Shown here: positions 15,997-55,402 of the stretch, piece after piece
Layout: each line of letters opens with the position of its first letter
How positions within the stretch are numbered: position 1 is the stretch's first letter
DNA from: an uncultured Phycisphaeraceae bacterium
GTDB taxonomy: Bacteria > Planctomycetota > Phycisphaerae > Phycisphaerales > Phycisphaeraceae
Reading direction: 5' to 3'
DNA: 64,000 nt
Assembly (NCBI GenBank): GCA_964649195.1
Contig: CAZYPK010000004.1
Span: forward strand, 8,000-71,999
The notes under the pieces: generated by a model
What the model was told of the DNA's origin: nothing
The model's database searches: none
What the model saw: only the letters and a program-made list of their open reading frames with translations
Translations under genes and position numbers: made by a program

Positions 15997-16030
15997 AAGG
16001 GCCTGGGGAAGAGGGCCTGGGGCCTAGGGG
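15997..16030 (+). repeat. Solo copy of the GGGCCT-heptamer arm
   Basis: AAGGGCCTGGGGAAGAGGGCCTGGGGCCTAGGGG lies just after the glnN stop and is related to the arms at 53834 and 54317. Confidence 0.65.
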
Positions 16031-22243: not shown

Positions 22244-23701
22244 ATGGCCATGGGCATGTTCATGCTGTTCCCCATTCTTCTGCTCGGCGGCGGCATGGGC
22301 GGCGCCAACGAACTGATCGATTACCTTCAGACCGAGCATTACTGGAAGACGCGCAACATCACCCCCGATGTGGCCACCCTTTCCGCCATGCTCGTCACCG
22401 ATCCCAAGGCCGAGGATATCTCCGCGCTGATCAGGCAACTGGGGCACGATGACTTCGACAAACGCGAGGCGGCCAGCGAAGCGATCGGCAGAAAAGGCCC
22501 GGGCGTCATCCCGCAACTGAAGGAAGCCGCCAAGTCCACGGACGCCGAGATCGCCGACCGGGCTTCGCGGCTGATCACTCATCTCTCCGGCGGCGACAGC
22601 GACCCCGCCATTCACAGGCTCATGATCATCCGCTCGCTGGGTGAAACCAAGGACAAGGCCGCCCTTGCGGCGCTCAAGACGCAGCTTGATTCGAAGGAGC
22701 CTTTCGCCGGCGAGTTTGCCCGCCGTGCGATCGCCAAAATCGAAGGCCTGCCTCATCAGCCGGCCACCACTTCGATCGAAAGCTACGAGAAGGATGTGTG
22801 GCTGCTGCCCAACGGCGTCAAGCTGGTGACGCAGATGACGATGACCTCCGGCGGTCCCGCCGACTGGGCCAGGATTCTGGCCAACGCCAAAAATCCCCTG
22901 GGAGAAGAGGTGCCCAAGGAGGACATGTTCAAGGAAGTACAATCCGGTGTGGCCATGGCGCTCAACACCGTGGGCAACATCCGCATCGACGGCTTCACGC
23001 TGGGCCTGTCGGACAGCCCCGGCCCCGACTCGGGCTTTGTCGTCATGCTGGTGCGCGGCCAATACAGCCGGGAGAAGCTCAAGAACCTGTTCAAGTCGAA
23101 GGGCATCGAGGTGACCCGGGAGGATGGCATCGATGCGGTGACGCCGCCGAATGCCAACATGAAATTGCTGTTCGTCTCCGATGAGCTGCTGCTGGTCATC
23201 GGCGGTCCGCGCGATGCGCAGGCCTGGCCGGTGAAGGAGATGACGGCGGCGATCAAGGCGGGCAAGGGCACCCTCGGCGAAGACGCGGCGATGGTGAAGC
23301 TGATCAACGCCGCCGACCGCAAATCAGGCGGCTGGGCCGCGATTCAGATGACGGAGACGTATCGCTCAGGCGGGCCGTGGATGAAATCGTTTGACACCGT
23401 CCTGGCCAGTCGCAAAAGCGAAAAGGGCAAAACATCCATCAAGGTCGTCGGCACGGGAAGCGATGCCGATGCGGTTCAACACTCGGTCAAGGAAATGAAC
23501 ACCGGCCTGGAGCAGATGCGGGGCAAGATGAATGAAATCGCCGGCATGATGCCCAAGCCTTTCATCGACTTCGCCAACAGCCTGAAGGTGGAAGCCGATG
23601 GCAAATCGGCCACGCTCACCGGCAGCATCGAAGGCGGCTTCGAGGACATCATCGGCTCCATGCTCTTCCCCATGATGATGCTGGGTGGCCCGGGCTTTTG
23701 A
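22244..23701 (+). CDS. Hypothetical secreted/membrane protein with HEAT-like N-terminal repeats
   Basis: GAAAGGA RBS before the ATG at 22244, then a hydrophobic N-terminus. DDFDKREAASEAIGRKGPGVIPQLKEAAKS is a repeat-type segment. No enzymatic motif found. Confidence 0.65.
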   Translation: MAMGMFMLFPILLLGGGMGGANELIDYLQTEHYWKTRNITPDVATLSAMLVTDPKAEDISALIRQLGHDDFDKREAASEAIGRKGPGVIPQLKEAAKSTDAEIADRASRLITHLSGGDSDPAIHRLMIIRSLGETKDKAALAALKTQLDSKEPFAGEFARRAIAKIEGLPHQPATTSIESYEKDVWLLPNGVKLVTQMTMTSGGPADWARILANAKNPLGEEVPKEDMFKEVQSGVAMALNTVGNIRIDGFTLGLSDSPGPDSGFVVMLVRGQYSREKLKNLFKSKGIEVTREDGIDAVTPPNANMKLLFVSDELLLVIGGPRDAQAWPVKEMTAAIKAGKGTLGEDAAMVKLINAADRKSGGWAAIQMTETYRSGGPWMKSFDTVLASRKSEKGKTSIKVVGTGSDADAVQHSVKEMNTGLEQMRGKMNEIAGMMPKPFIDFANSLKVEADGKSATLTGSIEGGFEDIIGSMLFPMMMLGGPGF

Positions 23702-52634: not shown

Positions 52635-53825
52635 ATGTCCAAACCCTGCAACGTCGCTCTCGTGGGTACGAAGTTCATGGGCCGTGCCCATTCCAATGCG
52701 TGGCTGAAGGTCGCCAAGTTTTTCGAACTGCCTCTCGATCCGGTGATGCACACGCTCATCGCCCGCAACCCGCAGGAGACCGCCGCGTTTGCCGCCCGGT
52801 GGGGCTGGAAGAGTTTCACCACCGACTGGAAGGCTGCGCTGAAGAATCCTGAGATCACGCTCGTCGATGTCACCACGCCCAACAACGCCCACCGCGATCT
52901 CTCCATCGCGGCGCTCGAAGCCGGCAAGCACGTCGCCTGCGAAAAGCCGCTCGCCGCTTCGCTCTCGGACGCCAGGGCGATGATGGATGCCGCGAAGAAG
53001 GCGAAGAAATCTCAAACCTTTGTCTGGTACAACTACCGCCGCTGCCCCGCCGTGGCCCTGGCGCATCAGCTCGTCAAGGAAGGCCGGCTCGGCCGCATCT
53101 ATCAGATTCGCGGCTCCTATCTTCAGGACTGGGCCGGCCCCGACACGCCGCTGATGTGGCGCTTCCAGGGCGATGTCGCAGGCTCCGGGGCGCTGGGCGA
53201 TCTGCTGGCCCACACCATCGATGCCGCCAGGTTCATCACCGGCGACGAGATCAGCCAGGTCATCGGCGCGGCGATGGAGACCGTCATCAAGGAGCGCGTC
53301 ATCCTCGAATCCACCGGCGGCGAAATCTCCGGCCGAGGCGCGAAAACCGCCGTGAAAAAAGGCAAATCCACCGTCGATGACATCTCCCTCTTCCTCGCCA
53401 AAACCAAAAGCGGCGCGCTCTGCACCTTCGAGGCCACCCGCCTCTCCACCGGCTACAAAAACCAGAACCGCCTGGAAATCCACGGCGACAAGGGTGCCAT
53501 CCGCTTCGGCTTCGAACGCATGAACGAACTGGACTTCTACGACAACACCCTCGAAGAAAAAGTGCAAGGCTGGAACACCATCAACGTCACCAACGGCGGC
53601 GCAGGCCACCCCTATGCCGGCGCGTGGTGGCCCGTCGCCCACGTGCTCGGCTACGAGCACAGCTTCGTCAACATGGCCGCCGACATCGTGAAAGCCATCG
53701 GCGGCGAAAAGCCCGTCGTCCCGCTGCCGAGTTTCGCGGACGCCTACGAAACCCAGCGCGTGCTGGAGGCGGTGACGATCAGCGCGAAGAACCGCGGGCC
53801 GGTGAAGTTGTCGGAAGTGAAGTGA
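52635..53825 (+). CDS. Gfo/Idh/MocA family oxidoreductase
   Basis: GAGGAG RBS. VALVGTKFMGRAH Rossmann motif. GKHVACEKPL motif. Confidence 0.9.
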   Translation: MSKPCNVALVGTKFMGRAHSNAWLKVAKFFELPLDPVMHTLIARNPQETAAFAARWGWKSFTTDWKAALKNPEITLVDVTTPNNAHRDLSIAALEAGKHVACEKPLAASLSDARAMMDAAKKAKKSQTFVWYNYRRCPAVALAHQLVKEGRLGRIYQIRGSYLQDWAGPDTPLMWRFQGDVAGSGALGDLLAHTIDAARFITGDEISQVIGAAMETVIKERVILESTGGEISGRGAKTAVKKGKSTVDDISLFLAKTKSGALCTFEATRLSTGYKNQNRLEIHGDKGAIRFGFERMNELDFYDNTLEEKVQGWNTINVTNGGAGHPYAGAWWPVAHVLGYEHSFVNMAADIVKAIGGEKPVVPLPSFADAYETQRVLEAVTISAKNRGPVKLSEVK

Positions 53826-53833
53826 GAGAAGAG

Positions 53834-54347
53834 AGGGCCTAGGGAGGAGGGCCTGGGGCCTAGGGGGGAGAGGATTTGGGCGGATATATCAGGACATGAC
53901 GACCTATGGGGTACGTGCGATGGCTGACGCTCCTGGGCAGTTTCGGAATCTGATTGCATGGCGGAAATCCTACGCACTTTCACTGTTGGTGTATCAGTCC
54001 ACGAAAGCGTTCCCGGCAGAAGAAAAATATGGATTGACACAGCAGATTCGCCGGTCAGCCGTGAGCGTCCCCAGCAACATCGCTGAAGGTTGGGGACGAG
54101 GTTCACGAGTTGACTATGTGCGGTTCCTCTGCATCGCCCGTGGTTCGTTGTATGAACTGGACACCCAACTCAATCTCGCCCGTGATCTGGACATCCTCAA
54201 GTCGGCGGAGGATCTTTTTGAATTGTTGAACGAAACCCAACGAGTCCTCAACGGTCTGATCCGTTCACTCCAGTCAGAATAGAAACGTCATTCTTCAGAC
54301 CTTCTTCATCCCTTCACCTAGGCCCTAGGCCCTCCTCCCTAGGCCCT
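53834..54347. mobile_element. Cassette bounded by 31-bp inverted repeats, carrying the four-helix-bundle gene
   Basis: Left AGGGCCTAGGGAGGAGGGCCTGGGGCCTAGG (53834-53864). Right arm reverse complement AGGGCCTAGGGAGGAGGGCCTAGGGCCTAGG (54317-54347). 30 of 31 positions are identical. Confidence 0.65.
53896..54282 (+). CDS. Four-helix-bundle protein (23S rRNA intervening-sequence protein / Avd-like family)
   Basis: Motifs AWRKSYALSLLVYQSTKAFP, EKYGLTQQIRRSAVSVPSNIAEG and RGSLYELDTQL. The start may be the ATG at 53920. Confidence 0.85.
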   Translation: MTTYGVRAMADAPGQFRNLIAWRKSYALSLLVYQSTKAFPAEEKYGLTQQIRRSAVSVPSNIAEGWGRGSRVDYVRFLCIARGSLYELDTQLNLARDLDILKSAEDLFELLNETQRVLNGLIRSLQSE

Positions 54348-54364
54348 GCCCCAAGGAGTCTTCC

Positions 54365-55402
54365 ATGCCCGTCAAATACGGAATCATCGGCTGCGGCGCG
54401 ATCGGTCAGCGCCGTCACATTCCCGAGTGTCACGCCAACCCACACAGCGTTGTCGCTGCGCTTTGCGATCCCAATGAGCAGCGCGTCGCCGAACTTGCCG
54501 CCAAGTACGGCGCCGTCGGCTACACCGATTACAAAAAAATGCTCAAGGAGGCGGACATCGACGCCGTCGTCGTCTGCGGCCCCAATGCGGTGCATGCTCC
54601 GCAGTCGATCGACGCCCTCAAAGCCGGCAAGCATGTGCTCTGCGAGAAGCCGATGGCGACCAGCCGCGCCGATGCGAAGAAGATGCTCGATGCCGCGAAG
54701 AAGAGCGGCAAGTATCTCATGATCGGCCTCAACCAGCGGCTCATGCCCGCCCATGTCCGCGCCAAGGAAATCCTCGCCGCCGGCAAGCTCGGCAAGGTCC
54801 TCGCCTTCCGCACCGCCTTCCAGCATCCCGGCCCCGACGGCTGGTCCGTCGATGGCGCCAGGAGCTGGTTCTTCGACAAGGCCGCCGCCTTCATGGGCGC
54901 CACCGGCGACCTGGGCGTCCACAAGGCCGACCTGCTCCGCTGGCTGCTCGGACAGGAGTTCACCGAGGTCGGCGGATTCATCACCACCCTCGACAAACGC
55001 GATGGCAAGGGCAGGCTCATCCCCCTCGATGACAACGCCTACCTGACCTTGAAAACCACCGGAGGCATCGTCGGCTCCATGATCGTCTCCTGGACCAACT
55101 ACGGCGCCGAGGAAAACTACACCGTCATCATGTGCGACAACGGCGTCCTCAAAATCGGCGCCGATCCCGCCTGGGGCGTCATCGTCGAATACAAAAACGG
55201 CGACCGCGAGCAGCACAAGGTCGGCGAAATGTCCACCAACACCAAACAGGTCGCCTCGGGCATCATCGACTCCTTCACCGCCGACATCCTCGCCAGAAAA
55301 AAACCGGAGATCGACGGCTTCGAAGGCTACCAGTCACTCAACGTCATCCTCACCGCAATGGAAGCCGCCAAGGCCGGCAAATCGCTGAAGATCGGCAAAT
55401 AA
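54365..55402 (+). CDS. Gfo/Idh/MocA family oxidoreductase
   Basis: AAGGAG RBS. YGIIGCGAIGQRRH Rossmann motif. GKHVLCEKPM motif. Confidence 0.9.
   Translation: MPVKYGIIGCGAIGQRRHIPECHANPHSVVAALCDPNEQRVAELAAKYGAVGYTDYKKMLKEADIDAVVVCGPNAVHAPQSIDALKAGKHVLCEKPMATSRADAKKMLDAAKKSGKYLMIGLNQRLMPAHVRAKEILAAGKLGKVLAFRTAFQHPGPDGWSVDGARSWFFDKAAAFMGATGDLGVHKADLLRWLLGQEFTEVGGFITTLDKRDGKGRLIPLDDNAYLTLKTTGGIVGSMIVSWTNYGAEENYTVIMCDNGVLKIGADPAWGVIVEYKNGDREQHKVGEMSTNTKQVASGIIDSFTADILARKKPEIDGFEGYQSLNVILTAMEAAKAGKSLKIGK

What the first reader, a model, noticed from the sequence alone, without database searches (positions are those of the whole stretch)
53834..54347. Four-helix-bundle (Avd-like, 23S-IVS family) gene sits in a 514-bp unit bounded by 31-bp inverted repeats between two paralogous oxidoreductase genes
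The 128-aa four-helix-bundle gene is flanked by AGGGCCTAGGGAGGAGGGCCTGGGGCCTAGG and its reverse complement, with 30 of 31 positions identical. This unit occupies almost the entire spacer between two Gfo/Idh/MocA genes that would otherwise be adjacent. A solo, related arm follows glnN (15997-16030). This protein family is known from 23S rRNA intervening sequences and as the accessory protein of diversity-generating retroelements, and it is often multi-copy. An IR-bounded single-gene unit suggests it travels as a small mobile or recombination-prone cassette. No reverse transcriptase or template/variable repeat pair is present here.
Basis: partly seen in the sequence, partly recalled or inferred. 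Interest (0 to 1): 0.6.

Follow-up and report, generated by a model that had tools for sequence, protein, structure and literature searches.

The report
Four-helix-bundle gene cassette with heptamer arms
A small, conserved gene of unknown function sits in a hairpin built from 7-base repeats, inserted between two sugar-oxidoreductase genes; close relatives carry a different small gene or nothing at that spot, and the repeat word follows the protein's lineage across distant bacteria, which suggests the protein and its repeats work together.

Summary
The arms lie at 53834-53864 and 54317-54347 (30 of 31 positions complementary). They enclose a PF05635/TIGR02436 four-helix-bundle (4HB) gene between two Gfo/Idh/MocA genes.

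The unit is a discrete inserted cassette, built like the ORF-bearing intervening sequences (IVS) of 23S rRNA:
- One other genus has the two genes about 25 bp apart.
- Two lineages of the same genus carry the orthologous 4HB with the same arms.
- Two further lineages carry a GxxExxY/PDDEXK_3 gene with different heptamer arms at exactly this slot.
- All seven 4HB paralogues in the genome are bracketed by inverted heptamer arrays, each with a different unit. Only 1% of random windows score as well.

The arms also belong to a repeat family almost confined to this genus. This genome has 54 arms, mostly in gene-less hairpins, and about 1,200 heptamer arrays in all.

New here: the closest non-orthologous relatives (62-67% identity) sit in other operon slots of distant hosts (atpH|atpA, accB|accC), yet 5 of 7 keep GGGCC-core heptamer arms. 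None of about 31 more distant 4HB loci do.

The protein is under purifying selection (dN/dS 0.07). I found no sign of recent transposition, a DGR or a terminator. The mechanism (RNase III excision; the protein reading its own arms) is inferred, not shown.

The parts
52635..53825 (+). Upstream Gfo/Idh/MocA oxidoreductase gene (ox1, 396 aa). Its stop codon lies 8 nt before the 5' arm.
   Evidence: PF01408, PF22725 and PF02894; ORF list
53834..53864 (.). 5' arm, G-rich: heptamers AGGGCCT-AGGGAGG-AGGGCCT-GGGGCCT-AGG. A further AGGGGGG unit follows (to about 53870), and the predicted stem runs to about 53874. It contains at least four G3 tracts, so it could form a G-quadruplex.
53920..54282 (+). 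Four-helix-bundle gene (120 aa from the conserved ATG; an upstream ATG at 53896 would give 128 aa). GC is 53-54%, against 60-67% in the flanking genes.
   Evidence: PF05635 1e-35 and TIGR02436 9e-36. Closest solved structure is 2GSC, XCC0516. Start conserved in L086. dN/dS 0.07. GC profile.
54317..54347 (.). 3' arm, C-rich: CCT-AGGCCCT-AGGCCCT-CCTCCCT-AGGCCCT. It is identical at 31 of 31 positions in the orthologous cassette of L086.
54352..54357 (+). AAGGAG ribosome-binding site of ox2, 5 nt after the 3' arm and 7 nt before the ATG.
   Evidence: read directly from the sequence
54365..55402 (+). Downstream Gfo/Idh/MocA oxidoreductase gene (ox2, 345 aa).
   Evidence: ORF list
15998..16028 (+). 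Solo G-rich arm of the same family, 29 of 31 matching, directly after a stop codon.

Best explanation
The 514-bp unit is an IVS-type hairpin cassette: a 4HB gene (PF05635/TIGR02436) carried in the loop of a long stem made of inverted tandem AGGGCCT heptamers. It was inserted into a formerly ~25-bp spacer between ox1 and ox2 in part of this genus.

Shown:
- It is a discrete insert, and relatives have an empty site or a different cargo at the same spot.
- It has been inherited vertically since insertion.
- The protein is under purifying selection.
- The heptamer word of the arms is kept within this protein's clade across distant hosts and different operon slots.
- The same arms occur as about 27 gene-less hairpins in this genome.

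Inferred:
- The cassette is co-transcribed with ox1-ox2, because no promoter or terminator was found.
- The 31-41-bp RNA stem is cut by RNase III, as in 23S rRNA IVS. This would release the 4HB message and leave ox2 with its own ribosome-binding site.
- The 4HB protein recognises the heptamer arrays that flank its gene. The cassette and the gene-less hairpins would then form a master-plus-satellites system like REP/RAYT or NTS/Ssn.
- Spread is rare and leaves no target-site duplication.
For: Insert and turnover at this slot:
- G017 has ox1 and ox2 about 25 bp apart.
- L086, L129 and L130 carry the orthologous 4HB (83-84% aa) with the same arms.
- G002 and L077 carry a GxxExxY gene (TIGR04256, 2e-40) with CAGGAAA-type arms in the same slot.
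- The cargo has 53-54% GC against 60-67% in the flanks.

The association with inverted repeats is general:
- All 7 paralogues in the genome score 25-38 for flanking inverted repeats.
- 1.0% of random windows reach 14.
- 16 of 27 4HB loci in relatives reach 14.
- 7 of 8 homologues from other phyla show inverted heptamer repeats on both sides by eye; L030 has a tandem array on the downstream side only.

The arm word tracks the protein clade:
- 5 of 7 non-orthologous relatives at 62-67% identity have GGGCC-core heptamer arms.
- They sit in the atpH|atpA or accB|accC slots of hosts whose AtpH is only 37-42% identical to this genome's.
- None of about 31 more distant 4HB loci has such arms.
- The arms are 59 of 62 positions identical between G000 and L086, while the cargo is 77.7% and the flanking genes 86-90% identical.

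The protein is functional: dN/dS = 0.096/1.36.

The stem and transcription:
- The minimum-energy fold has a terminal stem of about 41 bp, z = -5.3.
- There is no sigma-70-like promoter and no intrinsic terminator.
- An RNase III gene (rnc) is present.

Precedent: the Coxiella IVS has a 28-bp stem, GACAGAT heptamers and an S23p ORF, and is cut by RNase III (PMC4990558).
Against: - Co-transcription and RNase III cutting are therefore untested.
- Mismatches between arms show no bias towards G-U pairs on the sense strand (39 against 41). There is thus no positive sign of selection at the RNA level.
- The genome holds many abundant heptamer families with no 4HB gene, for example GGCACGRA (about 111 arrays), AAATCCG (104) and AAATCTC (84). 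A cognate 4HB is therefore not needed for every family.
- G001 has 33 AGGGCCT arms but no detected cognate 4HB. That assembly is only 80% complete, and no ox1 orthologue was found in it.
- Ordinary genes (an ECF sigma factor, rpsN, nusB, BMC shell genes) are also sometimes bracketed by inverted arrays in this repeat-rich genome.
- Two relatives in the 62-67% identity range (L131, L142) and G024 at 60% have other arm words.
Confidence: 0.6

Rival explanations
1. Coincidence of two independent features. The arms are just one of the many intergenic heptamer hairpins of this genome, with a structural or regulatory role such as G-quadruplex formation, mRNA stabilisation or spacing of translation starts. 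The 4HB gene merely lies inside one of them, with no functional link.
For: - There are about 1,189 period-7 arrays and about 230 short-loop inverted pairs in the genome.
- The AGGGCCT family has 54 arms, and only this one pair carries a gene.
- Ordinary genes are sometimes bracketed too.
- The same positional rule was published for Xanthomonas GGGAATC repeats, with no gene involved: the G-rich arm follows stop codons and the C-rich arm precedes start codons (PMC4692102).
Against: - All 7 paralogues have tight inverted-repeat flanks, against 1% of random windows.
- The layout recurs in other phyla.
- The arm word follows the protein clade across hosts and slots.
Confidence: 0.15
2. A currently active small mobile element (MITE- or IS-like) that moves by cut-and-paste or copy-and-paste, using the inverted repeats as transposase-binding ends.
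For: - Presence/absence and alternative occupancy of the slot among relatives.
- A gene-less AGGGCCT hairpin is present in G002 but absent at the orthologous G000 site.
- Related 4HB genes occur in different operon slots.
Against: - No transposase is present.
- No target-site duplication is visible; the whole spacer differs between filled and empty sites.
- The paralogues within the genome are at most 58% identical to each other.
- This cassette and two other 4HB cassettes of the genome are kept at orthologous sites in related lineages.
- P0010 occupies the same slot in all 24 contigs that were read.
Confidence: 0.1
3. A relic or accessory part of a diversity-generating retroelement (an Avd gene).
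For: PF05635 is the family of Avd. There is a weak hit to the Avd equivalog (E=5e-4), and many homologues carry a weak bAvd (PF22296) hit.
Against: - The Avd equivalog scores 20.4 bits against a cut-off of 80.
- There is no RT and no TR/VR pair nearby.
- The only RT in the genome is unclassified and lies on another contig.
Confidence: 0.02
4. A pair of transcription terminators flanking an independently transcribed small gene.
For: The arms are G+C-rich and lie at gene boundaries.
Against: - Each arm is not itself a hairpin; the two arms pair with each other across 452 nt.
- No T-run follows either arm, and no terminator-like or promoter-like site was found.
Confidence: 0.03

Closest known systems
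ORF-bearing intervening sequences of 23S rRNA (Coxiella burnetii helix-45 IVS; Leptospira IVS), which encode S23p (PF05635)
   Same: - The same protein family lies in the loop.
[quoted passage not shown]
- The termini are built from tandem heptamers (GACAGAT in Coxiella).
- The overall size, 430-510 nt, is similar.
- It is inserted in a transcribed region and has no promoter of its own (PMC4990558).
   Different: - It lies between two protein-coding genes, not in an rRNA helix.
- Excision by RNase III is untested here.
- The arms are shared with dozens of gene-less hairpins in the same genome.
G-rich heptamer repeats of Xanthomonas (GGGAATC) and Nostoc (GGGGAYT), and cyanobacterial STRR repeats
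   Same: - Tandem 7-mers with G3-4 tracts.
- Frequent convergent (inverted) pairs.
- Placement within about 50 bp of stop codons (G-rich strand) and of start codons (C-rich strand) (PMC4692102).
   Different: That paper does not mention an intervening sequence, 23S rRNA or XCC0516. It interprets the repeats as G-quadruplex motifs. Most heptamer families in this genome (CGGAACT, TTGCAAA, AAGTAAT) cannot form G-quadruplexes.
REP/RAYT (REPIN) systems and NTS/Ssn systems
   Same: A gene flanked by inverted copies of a repeat that is also dispersed through the genome in tens to hundreds of gene-less copies. The repeat type tracks the protein lineage (PMC3733652, PMC11893778).
   Different: - The protein is a small helical bundle with no recognised nuclease or transposase motif.
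- The repeats are tandem heptamer arrays, not single tagged palindromes.
- Binding or cleavage is not shown.
- Several abundant heptamer families have no 4HB gene.
Avd, the accessory protein of diversity-generating retroelements
   Same: The same fold family (PF05635 / bAvd), a small basic helical-bundle protein.
   Different: It scores far below the Avd equivalog cut-off, and there is no RT or TR/VR pair.

Membership tests
ORF-bearing 23S rRNA IVS | Encodes an S23p / PF05635 protein in the loop | tested here: met
   PF05635 E=1e-35; closest solved structure 2GSC
ORF-bearing 23S rRNA IVS | Terminal inverted repeats forming a long stem (about 28 bp) | tested here: met
   31-nt arms, 30 of 31 complementary; minimum-energy terminal stem of about 41 bp, z=-5.3
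ORF-bearing 23S rRNA IVS | Inserted in helix 25 or helix 45 of the 23S rRNA | tested here: not met
   It lies between two Gfo/Idh/MocA genes. No Rfam family matches in 53700-54500.
ORF-bearing 23S rRNA IVS | Excised from the precursor by RNase III | not testable with these tools
   The rnc gene is present.
DGR accessory protein Avd | Reaches the Avd equivalog model and lies next to an RT with a TR/VR pair | tested here: not met
   NF033474 scores 20.4 bits against a cut-off of 80. The only RT is on C194 and is unclassified.
REP/RAYT (REPIN) | Gene flanked by inverted copies of a repeat that is dispersed in the same genome | tested here: met
   54 arms in G000, about 18 of them paired as gene-less hairpins
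REP/RAYT (REPIN) | The gene encodes a Y1/HUH tyrosine transposase | tested here: not met
   The only Pfam hit is PF05635; there are no PADLOC hits.
G-quadruplex-type heptamer repeats (Xanthomonas/Nostoc) | At least four tandem G3+ tracts with 7-nt period, in convergent pairs near gene ends | tested here: met
   The 5' arm reads GGG-CCTA-GGG-AGGA-GGG-CCT-GGGG-CCTA-GGGGGG. All 18 pairs have the G-rich arm first.
G-quadruplex-type heptamer repeats (Xanthomonas/Nostoc) | Forms a G-quadruplex | not testable with these tools
   This needs biophysical measurement.
MITE / insertion sequence | Target-site duplication and transposase-related terminal inverted repeats | tested here: not met
   No duplication at the junctions, and the whole spacer differs from the empty site.
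Intrinsic terminator | Short G+C-rich hairpin followed by a T-run | tested here: not met
   No terminator-like site in 53600-54500.

The most novel reading that the evidence does not exclude
Four-helix-bundle 'IVS proteins' are sequence-specific readers of the tandem heptamer arrays that flank their own genes. Each 4HB clade, its armed cassette and the gene-less hairpins with the same word would form a two-component selfish or regulatory system, analogous to RAYT/REP and Ssn/NTS.

This would explain three things at once:
- the long-noted excess of heptamer repeats in bacterial genomes;
- the origin of ORF-bearing rRNA intervening sequences;
- the function of a very large orphan protein family. 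GxxExxY nucleases would be a parallel cargo competing for the same operon slots.
Probability: 0.3. Interest if true: 0.85.

Novelty: new variant of a known kind. Interest (0 to 1): 0.6.

Why it matters
PF05635/TIGR02436 proteins are among the most numerous bacterial proteins with no known function. Tandem heptamer repeats are an unexplained feature of many genomes; this one has about 1,200 arrays.

This locus adds three concrete points:
- An operon slot within one genus holds one of two unrelated small genes, a 4HB gene or a GxxExxY gene, each with its own heptamer arms. A related genus has the slot empty.
- The arm word is retained with the protein clade across hosts whose housekeeping neighbours have diverged to about 40% identity. 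This points to sequence-specific recognition, not mere stem pairing.
- The same arms are dispersed as gene-less hairpins.

Together these turn a vague association into a bench test: does the protein bind its own heptamers, and is the stem cut?

Tried and rejected
- A maximum-likelihood tree of ox1+ox2 from four congeners plus an outgroup, to count cargo replacements. It was unresolved (bootstraps 42-62). Sliding-window identities gave only a weak hint of linkage at the 5' end of ox2.
- A wobble test for RNA-level selection on the stems. G-U-compatible mismatches were 39 on the sense strand and 41 on the antisense strand: no signal.
- A one-to-one mapping between heptamer families and 4HB genes in this genome. 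It does not hold: several abundant families have no 4HB, and two 4HB genes (C82, C144) share the CGGAACT family. Heptamer units also grade into each other by single changes, so families are not discrete.
- Exact-protein look-ups for the 128-aa 4HB and for ox2 found nothing on record.
- The Rfam scan found no known RNA family. The promoter/terminator scan found nothing. PADLOC gave no defence-system hit for the 4HB or the GxxExxY protein.
- DGR was rejected.
- Possible remnants of AGGGCCT units at the outer edges of the G002 GxxExxY cassette (AAGGGCC ... AGAGGCC) are too short to count.
- No paper held both 'four helix bundle' and 'GxxExxY'. The papers that name PF05635, 23S_rRNA_IVP, TIGR02436 or S23p are listed; I read only the Coxiella IVS paper among them, and it deals with the rRNA element only. 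None of the listed titles or abstracts describes 4HB genes in heptamer-built hairpins outside rRNA.

Full report
**1.

- The two 31-nt arms are at 53834-53864 and 54317-54347. They are 97% complementary and 452 nt apart.
- The 31-mer occurs three times in the window with up to 3 mismatches, against none in 100 shuffles.
- The third copy is the solo arm at 15998-16028, right after a stop codon.
- The enclosed ORF is a clear PF05635/TIGR02436 four-helix-bundle (4HB) protein: E=1e-35 and 9e-36. Its closest solved structure is 2GSC, Xanthomonas XCC0516.
- Both neighbours are Gfo/Idh/MocA oxidoreductase genes on the same strand.
- The conserved start is the ATG at 53920 (120 aa), not the one at 53896. 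The orthologue in L086 and the gene call on record both use it.

**2. It is a discrete insert, and the slot turns over**

I fetched the ox1/ox2 neighbourhood from relatives.

| Lineage | Content of the ox1\|ox2 slot |
|---|---|
| G017 (another genus) | empty; the genes are about 25 bp apart |
| G000 (this window) | 4HB gene with AGGGCCT arms |
| L086 (microbial-mat contig; ox1 93.7% aa) and L129/L130 | orthologous 4HB (83-84% aa) with the same arms; 3' arm identical at 31 of 31, 5' arm at 28 of 31 |
| G002 (same genus) | 128-aa GxxExxY/PDDEXK_3 gene (TIGR04256 2e-40, PF13366 5e-38) with CAGGAAA-type arms |
| L077 | GxxExxY gene with CAGGAAA-type arms, a perfect 26-bp inverted repeat |

- The two cassette types differ over the whole spacer, from the ox1 stop codon to the ox2 start codon.
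- The four lineages are about equally distant (82-90% nt). The tree is unresolved, so the number of replacement events cannot be counted.
- The cargo interior has 53-54% GC, against 60-67% in the flanking genes.

**3. The protein is under selection; the arms are better conserved than anything around them**

Comparison of G000 with L086:

| Region | dN | dS | nt identity |
|---|---|---|---|
| 4HB gene | 0.096 | 1.36 | 77.7% |
| ox1 | 0.041 | 0.68 | 86.5% |
| ox2 | 0.027 | 0.48 | 89.7% |
| the two arms | | | 59 of 62 positions (95%) |

The 4HB ratio is 0.07.

**4.

- All seven PF05635 paralogues in the genome are tightly bracketed by inverted arrays of tandem heptamers, each with a different unit:
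  - C78: GAGCCGR
  - C133: GGGTGTC
  - C4: AGGGCCT
  - C82: CGGAACT
  - C27: TTGCAAA-like
  - C57: AT-rich AAGTAAT-like
  - C132: CAGGAAA
- With an ungapped inverted-repeat score, the seven reach 25-38. Only 4 of 398 random 340-bp windows of the same genome reach 14.
- Among 27 testable 4HB loci in 30 related genomes, 16 reach 14.
- 7 of 8 homologues from Verrucomicrobiota, Planctomycetota and Bacteroidota MAGs show the same layout on both sides by eye. The Clostridia MAG (L030) has a tandem heptamer array on the downstream side only.
- An eighth, divergent 4HB-like ORF (C144; PF05635 E=3e-4) is also bracketed.

**5. The arms are not private to the cassette**

- The AGGGCCT arm occurs 54 times in this genome. 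About 18 pairs form hairpins, always with the G-rich arm first. Their loops are 20-243 nt and unrelated in sequence. There are also about 9 solo arms.
- Only the window's pair holds a gene.
- The family is nearly confined to this genus: G000 54, G001 33, G002 7, G006 5, G018 1, and none in the other 26 relatives.
- Some copies are old and conserved at orthologous sites:
  - The solo arm upstream of groEL is identical at 31 of 31 positions in G000 and G002.
  - The hairpin upstream of accC is shared by G000 and G001.
  - Another hairpin is present in G002 but absent from a ~35-bp spacer in G000.
- The genome as a whole has about 1,189 period-7 arrays, against 117 (period 6), 235 (period 8) and 45 (period 10). 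They use more than 40 units.
- Ordinary genes are occasionally bracketed too.
- The placement matches what was published for Xanthomonas GGGAATC repeats. The G-rich arm comes just after stop codons, and the C-rich arm 10-30 nt before start codons. That paper reports 70-75 convergent pairs and draws no link to a protein (PMC4692102).

**6. New here: the arm word follows the protein clade**

- A search of the large protein collection found only one cluster above 70% identity, P0002 at 84%. It lies in the same ox1|ox2 slot.
- The next relatives (62-67% identity) all lie in other operon slots of distant hosts:
  - Six are between atpH and atpA: L131, L141, L142, L143, L144/L145 and L146.
  - One, L147, is between accB and accC.
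- Those hosts are far from this genome: AtpH is 37-42% and AtpF 38-54% identical.
- Five of the seven nevertheless have GGGCC-core heptamer arms:
  - AGGGCCT in L141, L143 and L144
  - AGGGCCA in L146
  - GAGGGCC in L147
- None of about 31 more distant 4HB loci has GGGCC in its arms. By hypergeometric count this is about 4e-5.
- Neutral DNA would be scrambled at this depth. Selection for pairing alone would allow compensatory change.
- So either the word itself is constrained, or arms and gene move and are homogenised as a unit.
- Exceptions:
  - L131 and L142 use GAGCCAY.
  - G024 (60% identity) uses GGCACGRA.
- Notably, the accB|accC slot, which holds a GGGCC-armed 4HB in L147, holds a gene-less AGGGCCT hairpin in G000 and G001.

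**7. How it most likely works**

- Anatomy (shown):
  - The minimum-energy fold of the spacer RNA closes with a terminal stem of about 41 bp (-226.8 kcal/mol, z=-5.3).
  - There is no sigma-70-like promoter or intrinsic terminator in 53600-54500, and no known RNA family.
  - The ox2 ribosome-binding site, AAGGAG, sits 5 nt after the 3' arm.
  - The genome has an RNase III gene, rnc.
- Inference 1: the cassette is co-transcribed with ox1-ox2, and the stem is an RNase III substrate.
- Inference 2 (weaker, about 0.3-0.4): the 4HB protein reads its own heptamer arrays. The cassette would be the protein-coding member of a family whose other members are the gene-less hairpins, as with RAYT/REP and Ssn/NTS (PMC3733652, PMC11893778).
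- Evidence against inference 2:
  - Several abundant heptamer families have no 4HB gene here.
  - G001 has 33 arms and no detected cognate gene, though it is 80% complete and no ox1 orthologue was found in it.
  - The wobble test gave no RNA-strand signal.

**8. What it is not**

- Not a DGR. The Avd equivalog scores 20.4 bits against a cut-off of 80. The single RT is elsewhere and unclassified.
- Not a terminator pair.
- Not a demonstrably active transposon:
  - There is no target-site duplication and no transposase.
  - Paralogues are at most 58% identical to each other.
  - This cassette and two other 4HB cassettes of the genome are conserved at orthologous sites in related lineages: C4 with L086, C82 with G002, and C57 with G001.

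**9. Novelty**

- Already in print:
  - ORF-bearing IVS in 23S rRNA.
  - Tandem heptamer repeats.
- I found no paper that describes 4HB genes as hairpin cassettes outside rRNA, or that links them to dispersed heptamer hairpins.
- Earlier notes of this scan describe the same general layout in many genomes. I re-tested the layout here and did not rely on them.
- What this locus adds:
  - The 4HB/GxxExxY alternation at one slot within a genus, with the slot empty in a related genus.
  - The association between protein clade and arm word.
- I rate it a new variant of a known kind, with moderate to high interest.

**10. Limits**

- The assembly has 315 contigs, and the relatives are mostly MAGs.
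- Host taxonomy was not established with tools. Names attached to homologues point to Planctomycetota/Verrucomicrobiota.

Noticed in passing
G000:C54 about 23250-23390 (outside the window) and L075:1455-1535: The uvrA reading frame runs uninterrupted through heptamer arrays inserted at the same codon position in two congeners. G001 has an AGGGCCT hairpin there. G000 has three other families in tandem (GGCACGAA x5, AAATCCG x4, CGACACC x4). The arrays are translated in frame. This recalls published REPs inside repair genes (PMC3733652).
   Followed up: partly
G000:C82:19101-20093 versus L120:1314-1946: A second polymorphic operon slot. G002 carries a 4HB cassette with GTTCCAG arms. G000 instead carries a two-gene module with no arms: a SocA/Panacea antitoxin-domain protein (PF13274, 8e-17) plus a 125-aa ORF with no family. 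4HB cassettes and toxin-antitoxin-like modules seem to compete for the same kind of site.
   Followed up: partly
G000:C29, atpH|atpA spacer (about 166 bp): The slot that holds a 4HB cassette in the closest relatives of this protein holds something else in this genome: a palindrome with arms of about 35 bp that is not heptamer-built (CAAGCCCGATGGCGAGGTCCGCCGAGCCGTCGGGGTA ... and its complement). The atpF|atpH spacer holds 8-mer arrays.
   Followed up: no
G000:C144:7254-8021: An eighth, divergent 4HB-like ORF (PF05635 E=3e-4, below the cut-off), bracketed by CGGAACT/CGGAACC arrays. These are the same family as the arms of the C82 cassette.
   Followed up: partly
G000:C65:359-386 and L069: A solo C-rich AGGGCCT-family arm about 25 nt upstream of the groEL start is identical at 31 of 31 positions in G000 and G002, while the adjacent coding DNA is about 90% identical. 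This suggests a conserved 5'-leader element.
   Followed up: partly
L030:2218-2300 (Clostridia MAG): A 4HB homologue is followed by about 12 perfect tandem CCCTAAT units, the complement of a telomere-like TTAGGG plus one base. No matching upstream arm is visible.
   Followed up: no
window 53920-54282 versus L086: Synonymous divergence of the 4HB gene (dS 1.36) is two to three times that of both flanking genes (0.68 and 0.48), although all three are orthologous and adjacent. Possible causes are weaker codon constraint, a higher local mutation rate near the hairpin, or an older allele brought in by recombination.
   Followed up: no
L009:2054-2070 and 2535-2550: The outermost bases of the G002 GxxExxY spacer read AAGGGCC ... 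AGAGGCC. These may be the last remnants of an older AGGGCCT hairpin into which the GxxExxY cassette nested. They are too short to be significant.
   Followed up: no
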